Made by a program: the position numbers and the translations under genes. From a virus (lineage: Duplodnaviria; Heunggongvirae; Uroviricota; Caudoviricetes), in the IMG/VR virus record IMGVR_UViG_2531839527_000011: a DNA stretch of 19,093 bases. One strand, 5' to 3'. Shown in pieces: positions 4,524 to 17,893 of the stretch. How positions within the stretch are numbered: the first letter of the stretch is position 1; every line of letters begins with the position of its first letter. Under the pieces are notes generated by a model. That model did not search any database, had not been told where the DNA came from, and saw nothing but the letters and a program-made list of their open reading frames with translations.

Positions 4524-4582
4524 AAAAAGGGCAGCAGAGCAGTCACGGAGTAAAACTGATACCACCAAACGTCACCAGAAAA
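4524..4582 (-). ncRNA. dicF: DicF-like small RNA
   Basis: Minus-strand sequence TTTTCTGGTGACGTTTGGTGGTATCAGTTTTACTCCGTGACTGCTCTGCTGCCCTTTTT is near-identical to the DicF sRNA as I remember it, ends in a T-run, and sits just upstream of dicB as in Qin. The plus-strand ORF 4583..4819 begins immediately beyond the 5' end of this call and is treated as non-coding. Confidence 0.65.
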
Positions 4583-6221: not shown

Positions 6222-6860
6222 TTAAATATCTTGTTGAATTTTAAAGCATACGCCCAATATGCAAGATAGATCATCCAGCATAATTGAAGGGTAGCGAGGA
6301 TTCGTGGGGACTAAAAGAATATCCGGCCCTTCTATCTCCAGTTTACGAATGACAGGTGTTGTGGTCCCTTTGGGTAAGGCAAGGACAATATTTCCTGGTT
6401 GTACGGTTCGATCGGGATCAACAAAAACTGTTGAACCATTTGGGATGGAAACTCCCCCACCAGATGTTGACATACTGTCACTCTCTAGAACAACTGCAAA
6501 GGTATTGGCCGGGATTTCTCCGACAAGCTGCACACAAGAGGTTATTGAGGAATTTTTCATATAATCACTCCAGCTTGCTGCCTGCTGAAGTGATAGTAGC
6601 GGAACCGTTTTTATCGGCGGTAAAGATAGATCAAGCGAATCACCTGTATTTAACTCTCCTCCATTAAGAAGCCAATTTTCGTTTACTTTCAATATCTTTG
6701 CCAGTGAACTTATGTAACGCGAGGACGGCGCTCCTCCACCGTTCATCCATTGACTTACGGAGCCTTTTGATGCGCCAGTGGCATTGACAAGGTCTTTGCC
6801 TTTCAGGTTTAGCGCATGCATACGTTGGGTTATGCGTTCAGATATTGTTTGCTTGCTCAT
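6222..6860 (-). CDS. CI-like prophage repressor (N-terminal HTH, C-terminal S24/LexA-like autopeptidase domain), 212 aa
   Basis: N-terminal HTH-like region (LKGKDLVNATGASKGSVSQWMNG). C-terminal domain has a Ser in a DSMS context and a Lys in VIRKLE at the spacing expected for an S24 Ser-Lys dyad. Divergent from the Cro-like gene. No SD sequence upstream of the ATG, suggesting a leaderless mRNA. Confidence 0.85.
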   Translation of the reverse strand: MSKQTISERITQRMHALNLKGKDLVNATGASKGSVSQWMNGGGAPSSRYISSLAKILKVNENWLLNGGELNTGDSLDLSLPPIKTVPLLSLQQAASWSDYMKNSSITSCVQLVGEIPANTFAVVLESDSMSTSGGGVSIPNGSTVFVDPDRTVQPGNIVLALPKGTTTPVIRKLEIEGPDILLVPTNPRYPSIMLDDLSCILGVCFKIQQDI

Positions 6861-15141: not shown

Positions 15142-15827
15142 ATAACCAGTATTTACAGTTTGTTCGTGAGCAACTCATGATTGCCACCGCCGATTTGAGT
15201 GGATCAACAAAAGGGCAGCTTGAAGCCTGGCAGGAGAATGCCATGTTCGATACAGGGCGTTACAGGCGAAAAAAAATCCGGTACCGCGATGAAGTGACTG
15301 GAAAAATGATAACGCGGGATAATCCACCAATCCCGGGAAAGCAATCGCTGGCGAAAGGTTCATCAATTGCCCTGGTCAGTCCGGTTGAGTTTTCGACATC
15401 ATCATGGCGACGCGCCGTTCTGTCTCTTGAAGAGCATCAGAAGGCGTGGGTGCTGTGGGTATACAGTGAAAATCCGAGTTGGGATTATCAGGTGGTCATT
15501 GCGAAATGGGCGTGGGATAAGTTTCAGGTGCATTTTGGCACCAGAAAAATTACAGGGAAAACGCTTGAGCGTCTGAAGAAATTAATCTGGCTGGCGGCGC
15601 AGGATGTCAGGGGGAGGATTACTGGGCGTGACGTCTACCAGCGACAGGAACTTGCCAGACTGTGTGGAGTTAAGCCTGACAACTGGAGCCATAATTATGC
15701 GAACTACTGGCGTGAGATGTGCGACATTTTTAAGAAACTCGATACAGAATCCTTGATTTGCACCGTGAAAATGAGATCGCAACAAAAAGCGACCTTTTCA
15801 CGACGAGATATTGCAAAAGTCAATTAA
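15138..15827 (+). CDS. Putative late-gene antiterminator Q (229 aa)
   Basis: Sits immediately after rusA and immediately before a promoter-plus-terminator unit, which is the canonical Q/PR'/tR' arrangement. The protein is not confidently matched by motif; the call is positional. Confidence 0.5.
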   Translation: MNNQYLQFVREQLMIATADLSGSTKGQLEAWQENAMFDTGRYRRKKIRYRDEVTGKMITRDNPPIPGKQSLAKGSSIALVSPVEFSTSSWRRAVLSLEEHQKAWVLWVYSENPSWDYQVVIAKWAWDKFQVHFGTRKITGKTLERLKKLIWLAAQDVRGRITGRDVYQRQELARLCGVKPDNWSHNYANYWREMCDIFKKLDTESLICTVKMRSQQKATFSRRDIAKVN

Positions 15828-15839
15828 ATCGCATACATT
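15811..15839 (+). promoter_or_regulatory. PR'-like late promoter (TTGCAA -17- TACATT)
   Basis: -35 TTGCAA (15811-15816), 17-bp spacer, -10 TACATT (15834-15839). Overlaps the end of the Q-like gene, as lambda PR' does. Confidence 0.45.
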
Positions 15840-15873
15840 TTATGTAAATGTGATATTTTGCCGTATAGTGTGT

Positions 15874-15898
15874 AAACCCGCTTAAATGCGGGTTTTTT
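15874..15898 (+). terminator. tR'-like intrinsic terminator about 35-50 nt downstream of the putative late promoter
   Basis: AAACCCGC-TTAAAT-GCGGGTTT followed by a T-run. Confidence 0.65.
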
Positions 15899-15971
15899 GC
15901 TTAACTCTGTGGACCTTTTTATCTGTAGTTGTAAGATATGGATATTCTTACAATTTAGGTCGGTGAGCTTA

Positions 15972-16736
15972 ATGGAAGAACAGCACGGTAATTACTTTAT
16001 AAAACGAATTCAGTTGATTGGAAGGGGTGCATTTGGCTTTGTTGAACACGTTAAGGTTTACAACCTCAACAAGGGTGAATGTGGGGATTATGCTAGAAAG
16101 GTTTTAGCCCCCGAAAAACCAGAGCTTTTGGCGCAAATAGAGCAGTTTAGAAGGCGTTTTAAAAGGGAGGTCGTGTATCAATCACATTGCGTACATAGCA
16201 ATATTGTTCCTATTTATTTGTGCGATTTGTTTGCCGAGAATCCATGGTTCATTATGGATAAAGCAGAATGTGATCTTGAGCACGAAATAACGAACAACCT
16301 TCTTACAACAGATCAAAAAATTTCAATAGTGAAAATGGTATTAGATGGTGTAGCTCACATCCATGCGAAAGGCTATTTACACAGAGATATAAAACCATTT
16401 AATGTCTTGCGATTTAGCGACGGAACATACAAGGTGTCTGATTTTGGTCTGGTAAAAGATACAAATCCCGAAGGGGATACCACTAAATTGACCGAGATCG
16501 GTACCCGTATGGGAAGTACAAGATATATGGCTCCCGAGATTTTATATAATGCCGAGTATTCAGTTAAGACTGATGTTTATGCGGTGGGGCGGTTAATTGA
16601 GGACTTAAATTTAGATGATAAAAAAATAAAGCCTATCATAGCGAAGTGTACCAGGATGGATAAAGATGATAGATATCAGACAATAGATGATGTGGCGTTT
16701 GATTTTGTGCATTCTTTTTTAAGGAGTGAGTCATGA
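15972..16736 (+). CDS. Hanks-type (eukaryotic-like) Ser/Thr protein kinase, catalytic domain only (254 aa)
   Basis: Gly-rich loop IGRGAFGFV, Lys in YARK, catalytic loop HRDIKPFN, DFG, and YMAPE activation-segment motif. AT-rich. Confidence 0.85.
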   Translation: MEEQHGNYFIKRIQLIGRGAFGFVEHVKVYNLNKGECGDYARKVLAPEKPELLAQIEQFRRRFKREVVYQSHCVHSNIVPIYLCDLFAENPWFIMDKAECDLEHEITNNLLTTDQKISIVKMVLDGVAHIHAKGYLHRDIKPFNVLRFSDGTYKVSDFGLVKDTNPEGDTTKLTEIGTRMGSTRYMAPEILYNAEYSVKTDVYAVGRLIEDLNLDDKKIKPIIAKCTRMDKDDRYQTIDDVAFDFVHSFLRSES

Positions 16737-17476
16737 TTCAGCTGATAGCGACTTCATCATTCTCGTATCCAAAAGAACCAGGTAGGGTCAACGAAGATTC
16801 ATTGCTTCCTCCCAAAATTGTAGGGGATGGCATCTTATTTGCCGTAGCTGATGGTGTAGGTTCATACACTGGTGCCAGTCAGGCTTCATCAATGGCAATT
16901 GCTGAACTTTCAGCATTGACAAGCTTATCTTTTGACACAGTTCCGGATGTATTTGATGAAGTTAAGCGAAAGGTTATGTCGTTAGCTGATGTTAATGATG
17001 AGTTCGATAAAGCTGCTACTACACTTACGTTTTGTTATGTTTGTGATAGCGGAATTATTATTGGTCATATTGGTGATTGTCGTTTGTATTGCATTGGAGA
17101 GAAGAAAGCATACCAATTGACGAAGGACGATACCAGGCATCAGATGCTAATTGATCAGAATATTTTTAAACCCAGAGATTTGAAGGATAAACCGGGCAAA
17201 AATATCTTAACGACGGCTATAGCCTCAAATGTTGATATGGAATACGACTGTGATTTTATCACATGGAAAGATTTACCTAGTATTAACGGGGTATATCATC
17301 TGTGTATCATGTCTGATGGGGTTCATAACGTTTGGGAAAAACGCCCCAGATTTACATCAAATACGATGAGTAATAGTCAGAAGTTTTCTAATGGCATTTT
17401 GCGTCGTATAGAGAGAGCCGGACCTGATGATGACTTTTCTTTAGTAAGTATAATGGTGCGTGTGACGTCAGATTAG
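16733..17476 (+). CDS. PP2C-family (PPM) Ser/Thr phosphatase (247 aa)
   Basis: NEDS, AVADGVGS, GHIGDCRLY and MSDGV motifs correspond to the PPM metal-binding motifs. AAGGAG RBS; ATGA start/stop overlap with the kinase. Confidence 0.8.
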   Translation: MIQLIATSSFSYPKEPGRVNEDSLLPPKIVGDGILFAVADGVGSYTGASQASSMAIAELSALTSLSFDTVPDVFDEVKRKVMSLADVNDEFDKAATTLTFCYVCDSGIIIGHIGDCRLYCIGEKKAYQLTKDDTRHQMLIDQNIFKPRDLKDKPGKNILTTAIASNVDMEYDCDFITWKDLPSINGVYHLCIMSDGVHNVWEKRPRFTSNTMSNSQKFSNGILRRIERAGPDDDFSLVSIMVRVTSD

Positions 17477-17548
17477 TTGTATAAACTCAGTAGGGAATGC
17501 TAATTTCACATACAACATAGTTAAAGAAAACTTAATTTTAATGTAAAA

Positions 17549-17574
17549 AGGCTGCCCTCAGGCGGTCTTTTTAT
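17549..17574 (+). terminator. Possible weak terminator hairpin after the kinase/phosphatase pair
   Basis: CTGCC-CTCA-GGCGG stem (one G-U pair) followed by TCTTTTT. Confidence 0.35.
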
Positions 17575-17695: not shown

Positions 17696-17893
17696 ATGCT
17701 AAAACAGCAGGATATGACCGAAACCGCCAGAGTGGTGTTTAATGAATTAAGCGTCACCGAACCGGCGACCGTCGGGGAAATTGCGCAGAATACTTACCTT
17801 TCACGCGAACGCTGCCAGTTAATCCTGACCCAGCTTGTTATGGCGGGTCTGGCAGATTATCAGTTCGGTTGTTACAGACGCCTTCTGCAGTGA
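17696..17893 (+). CDS. Hypothetical small protein (65 aa), possible DNA-binding
   Basis: Internal ATG at 17696 with AAAGGGAAA RBS-like purine tract. No motif assigned. Confidence 0.4.
   Translation: MLKQQDMTETARVVFNELSVTEPATVGEIAQNTYLSRERCQLILTQLVMAGLADYQFGCYRRLLQ

What the first reader, a model, noticed from the sequence alone, without database searches (positions are those of the whole stretch)
15811..17476. Ser/Thr kinase and PP2C phosphatase pair inserted directly downstream of Q and PR'/tR', the Stx-type moron position
A complete Hanks kinase catalytic domain and a PPM phosphatase are translationally coupled (ATGA overlap) and AT-rich. They begin about 75 nt after a promoter-plus-terminator unit that looks like PR'/tR', which would place them under Q-dependent late antitermination, as Shiga toxin genes are in Stx phages. 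Kinase/phosphatase pairs occur in some anti-phage systems (for example TerY-P-type systems), and a prophage-encoded kinase in phage 933W has been reported to exclude other phages, but no TerY/vWA partner or sensor domain is present here. This may be a minimal kinase-phosphatase exclusion or host-takeover module.
Basis: partly seen in the sequence, partly recalled or inferred. Interest (0 to 1): 0.8.

Follow-up and report, generated by a model that had tools for sequence, protein, structure and literature searches.

The report
Mobile prophage kinase–phosphatase gene pair
An E. coli lambda-like prophage carries, right after its late-gene switch, a two-gene cassette for a protein kinase and the phosphatase that reverses it; the same pair is widespread in phages of related bacteria, has not been studied, and most likely protects the host cell from other phages.

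Summary
A 254-aa Hanks-type Ser/Thr kinase (15972-16736) and a 247-aa PP2C phosphatase (16733-17476) overlap by ATGA. They lie in a ~1.7-kb low-GC insert just after a Q82-family antiterminator gene, its conserved late promoter/pause region and a terminator. That terminator corresponds to the only tR' of sister prophages that lack the insert.

All catalytic residues are invariant across homologues. dN/dS is 0.03-0.12, and both AlphaFold models are confident.

The post-Q position is not intrinsic to the pair. In all 90 related loci examined the kinase sits directly upstream of the PP2C. These loci fall into 36 clusters across Gammaproteobacteria. The pair is found after all three Q families, after the lysis genes, in cI repressor operons (the rexAB/933W stk slot), and in non-phage islands, one of them next to Gabija.

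It is therefore a self-contained accessory cassette (a "moron"). [quoted passage not shown] It is not a member of KKP or TerY-P. Its kinase is a remote relative of 933W Stk. I found no paper on it. Moderately interesting: a new variant of a known kind.

The parts
15138..15827 (+). Q antiterminator gene, Q82 family (context, not cargo)
   Evidence: PF06323 E 5e-84. phrog_304 E 1e-102. RefSeq annotates it as 'bacteriophage antitermination protein Q'. PF06323 is the Q82 family (PMC9388147).
15811..15862 (+). Inferred late promoter PR'. It has a -35 TTGCAA at 15811-15816, a 17-bp spacer and a -10 TACATT at 15834-15839, with an inferred start near 15846. The conserved block ATGTGATATTTTGCC (15848-15862) holds a -10-like GATATT, the likely sigma-dependent pause/Q-loading element.
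   Evidence: These positions are invariant in alignments of 6 and 8 Q82-type phages from E. coli, Cronobacter, Enterobacter and Hafnia. The motif occurs once at every Q82-type Q end among the fetched loci. The assignment is an inference; the consensus scan did not call it.
15874..15898 (+). Terminator t1, the typical tR' of Q82-type phages: AAACCCGC/TTAAAT/GCGGGTTT plus T-run
   Evidence: Found by the scan and folded. Homologous hairpins occupy the same place in Flotzy, phiES15, L092, L119 and L120.
15864..17544 (+). Approximate extent of the low-GC segment that is absent from sister prophages
   Evidence: The E. coli 98218 and O145 RM12522 prophages have the same RusA-Q-small gene-methylase order without it. 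Homology breaks after 15863 and resumes near 17545. GC is 0.37-0.40.
15929..15953 (+). Perfect 8-bp inverted repeat TTGTAAGA-N9-TCTTACAA in the kinase leader; role unknown
   Evidence: Seen in the sequence and folded (z -1.65 for the whole 76-nt leader, not significant). The 96% allele keeps pairing only as a G-U wobble.
15972..16736 (+). Hanks-type Ser/Thr protein kinase, 254 aa: catalytic domain only, with no sensor, transmembrane or partner-binding domain
   Evidence: Pkinase E 2e-33. phrog_2361 E 2e-98. G17/G19/G22, K43, E66, HRD137-139, K141, N144, DFG157-159, D201 and R234 are invariant; E189 is invariant in 25 sequences and nearly invariant (>=90%) in 32. AF2 pLDDT 89, TM about 0.7 to PknB/Stk1. 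dN/dS 0.03-0.04.
16733..17476 (+). PP2C (PPM) Ser/Thr phosphatase, 247 aa; its start overlaps the kinase stop (ATGA)
   Evidence: PP2C_2 E 2e-14. Stp1_PP2C E 1e-26, below that model's curated cut-off. D22, D40-G41, D195-G196 and D233-D234 are invariant. AF2 pLDDT 91, TM 0.75-0.79 to Stp1/PstP/tPphA. dN/dS 0.09-0.12.
17548..17574 (+). Terminator t2 after the pair: AAGGCTGCC/CTCA/GGCGGTCTT plus TTTAT. It corresponds to the single tR' of the insert-free sister prophages.
   Evidence: Fold gives dG -21.2 kcal/mol, z -5.3. It aligns with the tR' hairpin of 98218/O145. It is retained in the 96% allele, and a similar hairpin occurs in L119.

Best explanation
The pair is a self-contained, horizontally mobile two-gene accessory cassette (a 'moron') of temperate phages. 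It encodes an active, sensor-less Hanks kinase and its cognate PP2C phosphatase.

In this prophage the cassette sits between two terminators, immediately downstream of the constitutive late promoter PR'. It would therefore be transcribed at a low level by leak-through of tR' in the lysogen. It would be transcribed strongly, as the first late genes, once Q modifies RNA polymerase.

- The co-translated phosphatase keeps the kinase off, probably by dephosphorylating the activation loop around the near-invariant T174 as well as the kinase's substrates.
- A protein of an incoming, competing phage tips the balance, either by inhibiting the phosphatase or by activating the kinase.
- Unchecked phosphorylation of host or phage proteins then aborts the infection.

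Shown here: gene structure, intact catalytic machinery, purifying selection, strict pairing, mobility, insertion boundaries and terminators.
Inferred: promoter use, toxicity, the trigger and the anti-phage role.
For: (1) The pair is strictly conserved.
- In 90 of 90 loci the kinase is directly upstream of the PP2C on the same strand. Ten loci were found through the kinase and 80 through the PP2C.
- The start/stop overlap is 4 nt in 62 loci, 8 nt in 14 and 1 nt in 4.
- No third gene is conserved. The commonest neighbour family occurs in only 8 of 108 flanking ORFs.

(2) It moves as a unit between classic moron slots (36 clusters).
- After Q of all three Q families: Q82 (window, L119, L003, L120), Qlambda (L007, L165) and Q21 (L096).
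- After Rz and before terminase: L002, L092, L132, L136, L176, L145.
- Immediately downstream of, and co-oriented with, a CI-type repressor. No terminator lies between them and one lies right after the PP2C (L126, L131, L139, L151; S24-only proteins in L124, L125). From my own knowledge this is the lysogen-expressed rexAB slot of lambda. It is also the operon that carries stk in 933W-type phages.

(3) Non-phage copies sit in variable islands with defence-like neighbours.
- Gabija (GajA and GajB) lies 1.4 kb away in P. koreensis.
- A NACHT NTPase and SymE are neighbours in Xanthomonas.
- Transposases and a PNP-type effector-like gene are neighbours in P. putida.

(4) Loss is asymmetric, as expected if the kinase is the harmful partner.
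- Among the 50 E. coli genomes with the cassette, two independent frameshifts hit the kinase alone, in 6 genomes.
- None hits the PP2C alone.

(5) There are precedents.
- The prophage KKP module is a kinase/PP2C toxin-antitoxin system that defends against lytic phages when a phage protein inhibits the phosphatase (PMC11341870).
- 933W Stk excludes HK97 (PMC3681748) and falls in the same PHROG 2361 as this kinase.
Against: - There are no functional data of any kind: no toxicity, no phosphatase rescue, no phage phenotype.
- In this window I found no convincing own promoter, so expression in the lysogen rests on assumed leak-through of t1.
- About a third of the clusters sit inside late operons (post-Q, post-Rz). 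That would equally suit a lytic-cycle function.
- PADLOC gives only generic kinase-level hits and nothing meaningful for the PP2C (E 0.0074, no stretch passing).
- The defence-neighbour evidence is three loci. The NACHT gene has no PADLOC hit and the PNP-type gene only a weak one (E 5e-9).
- The loss asymmetry rests on two events.
Confidence: 0.45

Rival explanations
1. Lytic-cycle host takeover. The pair is a true late (or delayed) phage function. The kinase phosphorylates host transcription, translation or RNA-decay proteins to favour virion production, as the T7 gp0.7 kinase does. The phosphatase limits or times that activity, or erases host phospho-signals.
For: - Here, and in about 13 of 36 clusters, the pair lies inside the Q-dependent late operon: post-Q or post-Rz, with no terminator between Rz and the kinase.
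- No own promoter was detected in the leader.
- The T7 gp0.7 comparison is from my own knowledge.
Against: - The same cassette sits in cI operons, which would be expressed in the lysogen.
- It also sits in non-phage chromosomal islands.
- It is dispensable: sister prophages with the same backbone lack it, and only 50 of 5426 E. coli genomes carry it.
- Its own terminator marks it as an autonomous unit.
Confidence: 0.2
2. Lysogeny or host-physiology control. The kinase/phosphatase balance sets the phosphorylation state of a host regulator, for example an H-NS-family silencer as in KKP. That would tune prophage induction, or the induction of co-resident prophages, or change host fitness or virulence (lysogenic conversion).
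For: - KKP controls Pf prophage induction through MvaU phosphorylation (PMC11341870).
- The cassette occupies slots typical of lysogenic-conversion genes.
- It is frequent in ETEC, EAEC and other pathogenic isolates that carry several prophages.
Against: - No regulator-binding or sensor domain is present.
- There is no conserved link to any particular host target or phage type.
- Distribution across very different hosts (Enterobacterales, Pasteurellaceae, Vibrio, Pseudomonas, Xanthomonas, Acinetobacter) argues for a generic target.
- This reading is compatible with, rather than exclusive of, the defence reading.
Confidence: 0.2
3. Counter-defence. The phosphatase reverses phosphorylation laid down by host kinase-based immunity (Stk2-, KKP- or TerY-P-like systems), or the kinase inactivates a defence protein. 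The carrier phage is protected during its own lytic growth.
For: The pair is placed at the very start of the late transcript here. Kinase-based defence systems exist in the same hosts (PMC11341870).
Against: - This does not explain the copies in cI operons or next to Gabija in chromosomes.
- It does not explain why kinase and phosphatase are always kept together.
- There is no precedent in the papers I read.
Confidence: 0.07
4. Decaying passenger genes with no current function.
For: The host prophage is defective in some strains, for example E24377A, which lacks most structural genes. A few copies carry frameshifts or IS elements.
Against: - dN/dS is 0.03-0.12.
- All catalytic residues are invariant across homologues of 40-75% identity.
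- 43 of 50 E. coli copies are intact.
Confidence: 0.03

Closest known systems
933W Stk (prophage-encoded kinase that excludes phage HK97)
   Same: - A prophage-encoded eukaryote-like kinase of lambdoid E. coli phages.
- It falls in the same PHROG family, phrog_2361 (window kinase E 2e-98, 24B Stk E 3e-142).
- In four to six homologue clusters the pair occupies the same cI-operon slot as stk.
   Different: - Identity is only 26% over about 200 residues.
- Stk is 348 aa with a C-terminal extension and has HFD in place of HRD.
- Stk has no partner phosphatase in the operon.
- It is reported as a tyrosine kinase (PMC3681748). The window kinase has the Ser/Thr-type HRDxKxxN loop (motif interpretation from my own knowledge).
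KKP (kinase-kinase-phosphatase) prophage module, Guo et al. 2024, PMC11341870
   Same: A prophage-borne Hanks kinase plus a PF13672 PP2C phosphatase acting as one unit. The published logic, with the kinase as toxin, the phosphatase as antitoxin and a phage protein inhibiting the phosphatase, is the model I adopt.
   Different: - KKP has three genes and two kinases, which carry C-terminal CSD and FHA domains. Its genes are 900-1300 bp and it is found in P2, P4, Mu-like and Pf prophages.
- Here there is one 254-aa kinase with no extra domain, in the order kinase then PP2C, in lambdoid phages.
Bacterial eSTK/eSTP pairs (PknB/PstP, Stk1/Stp1, StkP/PhpP)
   Same: These are the closest solved structures and profiles for both proteins. 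They are also adjacent, co-transcribed kinase/PP2C genes.
   Different: - The housekeeping kinases carry transmembrane and PASTA sensor domains; the cassette kinase has none.
- From my own knowledge, they are core chromosomal genes, usually with the phosphatase gene first.
- The cassette is accessory, mobile and minimal.
TerY-P (TerY/vWA + PP2C + kinase; Gao et al. 2020) and the E. coli yegI-pphC-yegL locus
   Same: A kinase and a PP2C in one candidate defence locus.
   Different: - No vWA/TerY gene is present in the window or next to any homologue.
- YegI and PphC show no significant similarity to the window proteins.
- The TerY-P definition is from my own knowledge.
PD-T4-6 / MADS Mad6 / Stk2 (PADLOC kinase models)
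   Same: The kinase domain matches these models at E 1e-28 to 1e-39.
   Different: - Matches cover only the generic catalytic core, and their scores (96-135 bits) are in the same range as the Pfam Pkinase score (116 bits).
- PADLOC's PD-T4-6 models also call a kinase present in every S. thermophilus genome analysed, whose N-terminal domain matches S. aureus PknB (4eqm) (PMC11514479). They are therefore not diagnostic.

Membership tests
Hanks-type (eukaryote-like) Ser/Thr protein kinase, PF00069 | Gly-rich loop GxGxxG, the VAIK Lys and the alphaC Glu | tested here: met
   G17, G19, G22, K43 and E66 are invariant in 25 and in 32 homologues.
Hanks-type (eukaryote-like) Ser/Thr protein kinase, PF00069 | Catalytic loop HRDxKxxN (Ser/Thr type), DFG, APE, and the subdomain IX Asp and XI Arg | tested here: met
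   H137-R138-D139, K141, N144, D157-F158-G159, D201 and R234 are invariant in both alignments. E189 is invariant in 25 sequences and nearly invariant (>=90%) in 32.
Hanks-type (eukaryote-like) Ser/Thr protein kinase, PF00069 | Bilobal kinase fold | tested here: met
   AF2 pLDDT 89.2 and pTM 0.86; only the activation loop (162-178) is disordered. Foldseek TM is about 0.7 to PknB, Stk1 and BTK.
Hanks-type (eukaryote-like) Ser/Thr protein kinase, PF00069 | Phosphotransfer activity and residue specificity | not testable with these tools
   Needs purified protein or phosphoproteomics.
PPM/PP2C phosphatase, PF13672/PF00481 | Metal-binding acidic residues of motifs 1, 2, 8 and 11 | tested here: met
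   D22, D40-G41, D195-G196 and D233-D234 are invariant in 10 and in 32 homologues.
PPM/PP2C phosphatase, PF13672/PF00481 | PPM beta-sandwich fold | tested here: met
   AF2 pLDDT 91.4. TM is 0.75-0.79 to Stp1, PstP and tPphA, and about 0.72 to PppA.
KKP module (PMC11341870) | Three-gene unit: a PP2C plus two kinases | tested here: not met
   There is one kinase only. The flanking genes are Q and a 65-aa wHTH protein that is also present in insert-free phages.
KKP module (PMC11341870) | A PfkA-like kinase fused to a cold-shock domain and a PfkB-like kinase fused to an FHA domain | tested here: not met
   Pfam finds only Pkinase/PK_Tyr_Ser-Thr in the 254-aa protein. All 120 listed homologues are 217-284 aa, and the only extra precomputed Pfam entries are PF17667 and PF03109 on one protein each, neither CSD (PF00313) nor FHA (PF00498).
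KKP module (PMC11341870) | The kinase is toxic, the phosphatase neutralises it, and the unit defends against lytic phages | not testable with these tools
   Only an indirect hint: two kinase-only frameshift events against no PP2C-only loss.
TerY-P | A TerY-like vWA protein encoded with the PP2C and the kinase | tested here: not met
   No vWA domain was found in the window ORFs scanned or among the 25 commonest Pfam families of 215 neighbour ORFs of homologues.
933W Stk family (phrog_2361) | Sequence membership in the same phage protein family | tested here: met
   Both match phrog_2361 as their best PHROG. Pairwise identity is only 26%.
933W Stk family (phrog_2361) | A stand-alone kinase in the cI/PRM operon, activated by an infecting phage | tested here: not met
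   Here the kinase is always paired with a PP2C. In this window it is post-Q, not in the cI operon (cI-like gene at 6222-6860). Activation by an infecting phage is not testable.
Lambdoid PR'/tR' late-control region, Q82 type | A promoter overlapping the Q 3' end, a conserved -10-like pause/Q-loading block in the early transcribed region, then an intrinsic terminator | tested here: met
   Conserved elements are seen in 8 Q82-type phages and a terminator follows.

The most novel reading that the evidence does not exclude
A minimal two-gene phospho-switch, one bare Hanks kinase plus one PP2C with no sensor domain and no third partner, is a widespread and so far uncharacterised anti-phage/toxin-antitoxin system of Gammaproteobacterial prophages.

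It would be distinct from KKP, TerY-P and Stk2. Its kinase would be the ancestor or sister of 933W Stk, which on this view is a derived form that lost the phosphatase.

In Q82-type phages the cassette is wedged between two tR' terminators. Its dose would then be set by leak-through in the lysogen and jump at induction, which would protect the induced cell from competitors and satellites.
Probability: 0.35. Interest if true: 0.65.

Novelty: new variant of a known kind. Interest (0 to 1): 0.5.

Why it matters
Kinase-based immunity in bacteria is known from only a handful of systems: 933W Stk, staphylococcal Stk2, KKP, and the kinases of BREX and MADS.

This cassette is smaller than any of them. 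It occurs across many Gammaproteobacterial genera and in about 1% of complete E. coli genomes, including ETEC and EAEC strains. It is easy to clone at about 1.7 kb.

If it is a defence or toxin-antitoxin module, it would give:
- a minimal model for how a sensor-less kinase/phosphatase pair detects infection;
- a way to explain the origin of 933W Stk;
- a new entry for defence-annotation tools, which at present either miss it or would mislabel it through generic kinase models.

If it instead acts in the phage's own lytic cycle, it would be a lambdoid counterpart of the T7 kinase.

Tried and rejected
- Megablast of the cassette against 50,697 phage records found nothing. Only protein-level relatives exist there.
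- The genome-contig scan with the kinase alignment was swamped by generic kinase motifs (HRDxKPxN, SDFGL).
- PADLOC gave generic kinase hits and only a non-significant PP2C hit (E 0.0074). It gave no hits for the NACHT neighbour or for the other window ORFs tested, and only a weak effector-model hit (E 5e-9) for the PNP-type gene.
- The sigma-70 consensus scan found no promoter at PR' or in the kinase leader. Manual inspection of the leader found only poorly spaced hexamers that are not conserved in L119. I do not claim an own promoter.
- The inverted repeat at 15929-15953 is not significantly more stable than shuffled sequence when the whole leader is folded (z -1.65). It is left unexplained.
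- I considered whether the pair is a paralogue of the E. coli core yegI/pphC locus. It is not.
- Literature searches for the protein accessions, for lambdoid moron kinases and for phiES15 found no study of this pair. The phage 82 PR' sequence could not be retrieved from the papers read.
- Upstream leaders of distant homologues do not align beyond the ribosome-binding site.
Full report
**What is in the sequence**

The window is a lambdoid E. coli prophage. It is 100% identical over the region of interest to several ETEC genomes and 99.9% identical to E24377A, where the prophage is inserted between potC and potB.

On the + strand the gene order is as follows:
- DUF968 (13648-14769)
- RusA (14782-15141)
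- a Q antiterminator (15138-15827; PF06323, E 5e-84)
- a 254-aa protein kinase (ATG 15972, stop 16736; Pkinase, E 2e-33)
- a 247-aa PP2C phosphatase (ATG 16733, stop 17476; PP2C_2, E 2e-14)
- a 65-aa winged-helix protein (17696-17893; phrog_331)
- an N6/N4 DNA methyltransferase (18044 onwards)

The kinase stop and the phosphatase start overlap as ATGA. GC falls to 0.37-0.40 between about 15800 and 17600, against about 0.50 on either side. A terminator-like hairpin lies at 15874-15898.

**The late-control region**

PF06323 is the Q82 family of antiterminators (PMC9388147). The consensus scan does not call a promoter after Q.

I aligned the Q 3' end and downstream DNA of 6, and then 8, Q82-type phages from E. 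coli, Cronobacter, Enterobacter and Hafnia. The alignments show the following:
- an invariant TTGCAA (15811-15816);
- a 17-bp spacer;
- a -10 hexamer (TACATT, 15834-15839) in which only the A at position 2 and the T at position 6 are invariant;
- a conserved block ATnTGATATnTTGCC (15848-15862), about 2-16 nt after the inferred start;
- in most of the phages, an AAACCCGC...GCGGGTTTTTT hairpin.

This is the anatomy expected of a PR' with a sigma-dependent pause and Q-loading element followed by tR'. In phage 82 the Q-binding and pause elements form a unit that can be displaced downstream of the promoter (PMC4914094). The assignment is comparative inference, not a demonstrated start site.

**The insert and its second terminator**

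Prophages in E. coli 98218 and O145 RM12522 have the same RusA-Q-small gene-methylase backbone (87-89% identity) but no kinase or phosphatase.

Homology with the window breaks just after 15863. It resumes near 17545, at a strong hairpin (AAGGCTGCC-CTCA-GGCGGTCTT plus T-run, 17548-17574; dG -21.2 kcal/mol, z -5.3). This hairpin is the counterpart of the only tR' of those phages.

The cassette is therefore bracketed by two terminators. The upstream one is of the allele type seen in Flotzy, L119 and L120. The downstream one is of the allele type seen in the insert-free relatives. A pig ETEC prophage carries unrelated cargo (a 714-bp pseudogene) in the same slot.

**Are the enzymes real and functional?**

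The kinase family consists of compact proteins of about 250 aa, found across Gammaproteobacteria. In alignments of 25 and 32 members (40-75% identity to the window protein) nearly every canonical Hanks residue is invariant:
- G17, G19 and G22
- K43
- E66
- H137-R138-D139, K141 and N144
- D157-F158-G159
- D201
- R234

E189 is invariant in the 25-sequence alignment and nearly invariant (at least 90%) in the 32-sequence one.

The catalytic loop is of the Ser/Thr type. The PP2C family is equally widespread. It keeps the metal-binding residues D22, D40-G41, D195-G196 and D233-D234.

| Measure | Kinase | PP2C |
|---|---|---|
| AlphaFold mean pLDDT | 89 (only the activation loop, 162-178, is disordered) | 91 |
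| Closest solved folds | PknB, Stk1 and other kinase domains, TM about 0.7 | Stp1, PstP, tPphA (TM 0.75-0.79); PppA about 0.72 |
| dN/dS against the 96% and 94%/82% alleles | 0.03-0.04 | 0.09-0.12 |

Both genes are under strong purifying selection.

**The pair is a mobile two-gene unit**

I collected 10 loci through the kinase and 80 viral contigs through the PP2C.
- In all 90 loci the kinase lies immediately upstream of the PP2C on the same strand.
- The genes overlap by 4 nt in 62 loci, by 8 nt in 14 and by 1 nt in 4.
- The loci fall into 36 clusters at 90% PP2C identity.
- No third gene is conserved. The commonest Pfam family among 108 upstream ORFs occurs 8 times.

The positions of the cassette are as follows.

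| Position | Loci |
|---|---|
| After Q82-family Q | window type, L119 (Cronobacter), phiES15, L120 (Hafnia) |
| After Qlambda-family Q | L007 (Yersinia pseudotuberculosis), L165 |
| After Q21-family Q | L096 |
| After Rz/Rz1, before terminase | Flotzy, L092 (Enterobacter hormaechei), L132, L136, L176, L145 |
| Directly downstream of, and co-oriented with, a CI-type repressor, with a divergent Cro-like gene | L126, L131, L139, L151; S24-only proteins in L124 and L125 |
| After an N-like gene | L146 |
| In the early region near int (Haemophilus) | L094 |
| Beside a PM2-like element (Vibrio) | L011 |
| In non-phage islands | P. putida (transposases and a PNP-type gene); Xanthomonas (NACHT NTPase and SymE); P. 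koreensis (1.4 kb from GajA/GajB of Gabija) |

A terminator-like hairpin lies within 120 nt after the PP2C in 25 of 36 clusters. Only 10% of random windows in the same loci contain one (P about 2e-17). No terminator lies between cI and the kinase (0 of 6) or between Rz and the kinase (0 of 6). One lies between Q and the kinase in 6 of 7 clusters by my scan, and in the seventh by eye.

This is the architecture of an autonomous accessory cassette that drops into whichever transcription unit is at hand. The cI-operon copies occupy what I know as the rexAB slot of lambda. It is also the operon that carries stk in 933W-type phages.

**Distribution and decay in E. coli**

The cassette is present in 50 of 5426 complete genomes. 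It is always chromosomal and always follows a Q gene in the copies I inspected. There are two alleles: 20 genomes at 99% identity or more, and 30 at about 96%.
- 43 copies are intact.
- A 10-bp deletion truncates the kinase in strain 510016.
- A 1-bp deletion truncates the kinase in five genomes.
- In both of these cases the PP2C is intact.
- One IS-riddled copy has lost both genes.

Kinase-only loss without PP2C-only loss is what a toxin/antitoxin relationship predicts. Two events are too few to weigh heavily.

**How it most likely works**

The anatomy fits a self-contained phospho-switch. It consists of a bare kinase with a disordered activation loop that carries the near-invariant T174. A phosphatase is made from the same message in fixed stoichiometry.

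Three things point the same way:
- the lysogen-expressed positions in other phages;
- the defence-type neighbours in chromosomes;
- the published behaviour of KKP, in which the kinases are the toxin, the PP2C is the antitoxin and a phage protein inhibits the PP2C (PMC11341870), and of 933W Stk, which excludes HK97 (PMC3681748).

I therefore favour a toxin-antitoxin-like superinfection-exclusion or abortive-infection module, with confidence of about 0.45.

In this prophage, transcription would come from PR'. It would be leak-through of t1 in the lysogen and full read-through of t1 and t2 after Q acts. I found no conserved promoter of its own in the leader.

The rivals are set out in the Rival explanations section:
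- a lytic-cycle host-takeover function, suggested by the late-operon copies;
- KKP-like control of lysogeny or host physiology;
- counter-defence;
- decay, which the selection data contradict.

**Comparison with known systems**

- **KKP.** The pair works like KKP on paper but is not a member. It has one kinase rather than two, no CSD or FHA domain, and sits in different phage types.
- **TerY-P.** It is not TerY-P, because there is no vWA partner. It is also unrelated to E. coli YegI/PphC.
- **PADLOC kinase models.** Matches to PD-T4-6, Mad6 and Stk2 score in the same range as the generic Pkinase domain. The PD-T4-6 models also call a PknB-like kinase present in every S. thermophilus genome analysed (PMC11514479).
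- **933W Stk.** This is the nearest characterised relative of the kinase. It is in the same PHROG 2361. However, identity is 26%, Stk has HFD instead of HRD, it is longer, and it has no phosphatase.

I found no paper on this two-gene cassette. RefSeq and PHROGs annotate the proteins generically.

**Verdict**

The finding is real, well delimited and biologically coherent. The 'Stx-type, Q-dependent' framing describes this one insertion, not the module.

I rate it a new variant of a known kind (prophage kinase-phosphatase modules), with function untested. Interest is 0.5. It would not astonish a specialist after KKP. It is widespread, minimal, uncharacterised and immediately testable.

Noticed in passing
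window 9876-10412 (+): A second antiterminator-like gene of a different family (PF06530, Q21 family, E 3e-30; 178 aa) sits in the middle of the early-right region, about 5 kb upstream of the Q82-type Q. The genes that follow it are on the opposite strand, so it may be a mosaic remnant or a second late switch.
   Followed up: no
window 10418-10897 (-) and 10913-11827 (-): A convergent two-gene pair lies on the minus strand between the Q21-like gene and hok/sok. It consists of a 304-aa DUF6731 protein and a 159-aa protein with no Pfam hit. Neither has a PADLOC hit. It looks like another accessory cassette of unknown function.
   Followed up: partly
window 12836-13330 (+): A Fic/DOC-family protein (PF02661, E 7e-12; 164 aa) is preceded by a small ORF (12599-12826). 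This may be a Doc/Phd-type toxin-antitoxin pair or a Fic effector. It is absent from the otherwise similar prophages of E24377A and 503025, which carry other cargo or IS1203 at that place.
   Followed up: no
window 12107-12431 (+) and 4529-4580 (-): Rfam finds a sok antitoxin RNA (108.7 bits) overlapping a 70-aa hok-like ORF (12219-12431). It also finds DicF sRNA (66.9 bits) in the region where related prophages carry dicB. These are ordinary for Qin/Rac-like lambdoid prophages.
   Followed up: no
L006 2771-3484 (E. coli ETEC4077 prophage): The same slot between the PR' pause block and the downstream terminator holds an unrelated 714-bp gene with an internal stop. This suggests the PR' leader is a recurrent insertion or recombination hotspot flanked by terminator alleles.
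   Followed up: partly
window 15929-15953 (+): A perfect 8-bp inverted repeat TTGTAAGA-N9-TCTTACAA lies in the kinase leader and overlaps a TACAAT hexamer. The 96% allele changes both arms (G to T and C to G), which keeps only a G-U pair in RNA. It may be an operator, an RNA hairpin or chance.
   Followed up: partly
phrog_5650 (PHROGs profile), seen with window 16733-17473: The PP2C matches positions 273-520 of a 565-position profile. Some members of that PHROG may therefore be kinase-PP2C fusions or carry a long N-terminal extension.
   Followed up: no
L179 2254-2541 (E. coli 118UI) and other ~96% allele copies: In the 96% allele the small wHTH gene is missing and the methyltransferase is truncated at its N-terminus directly after the cassette's terminator. 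The right-hand junction of the cassette therefore differs between the two E. coli alleles.
   Followed up: no
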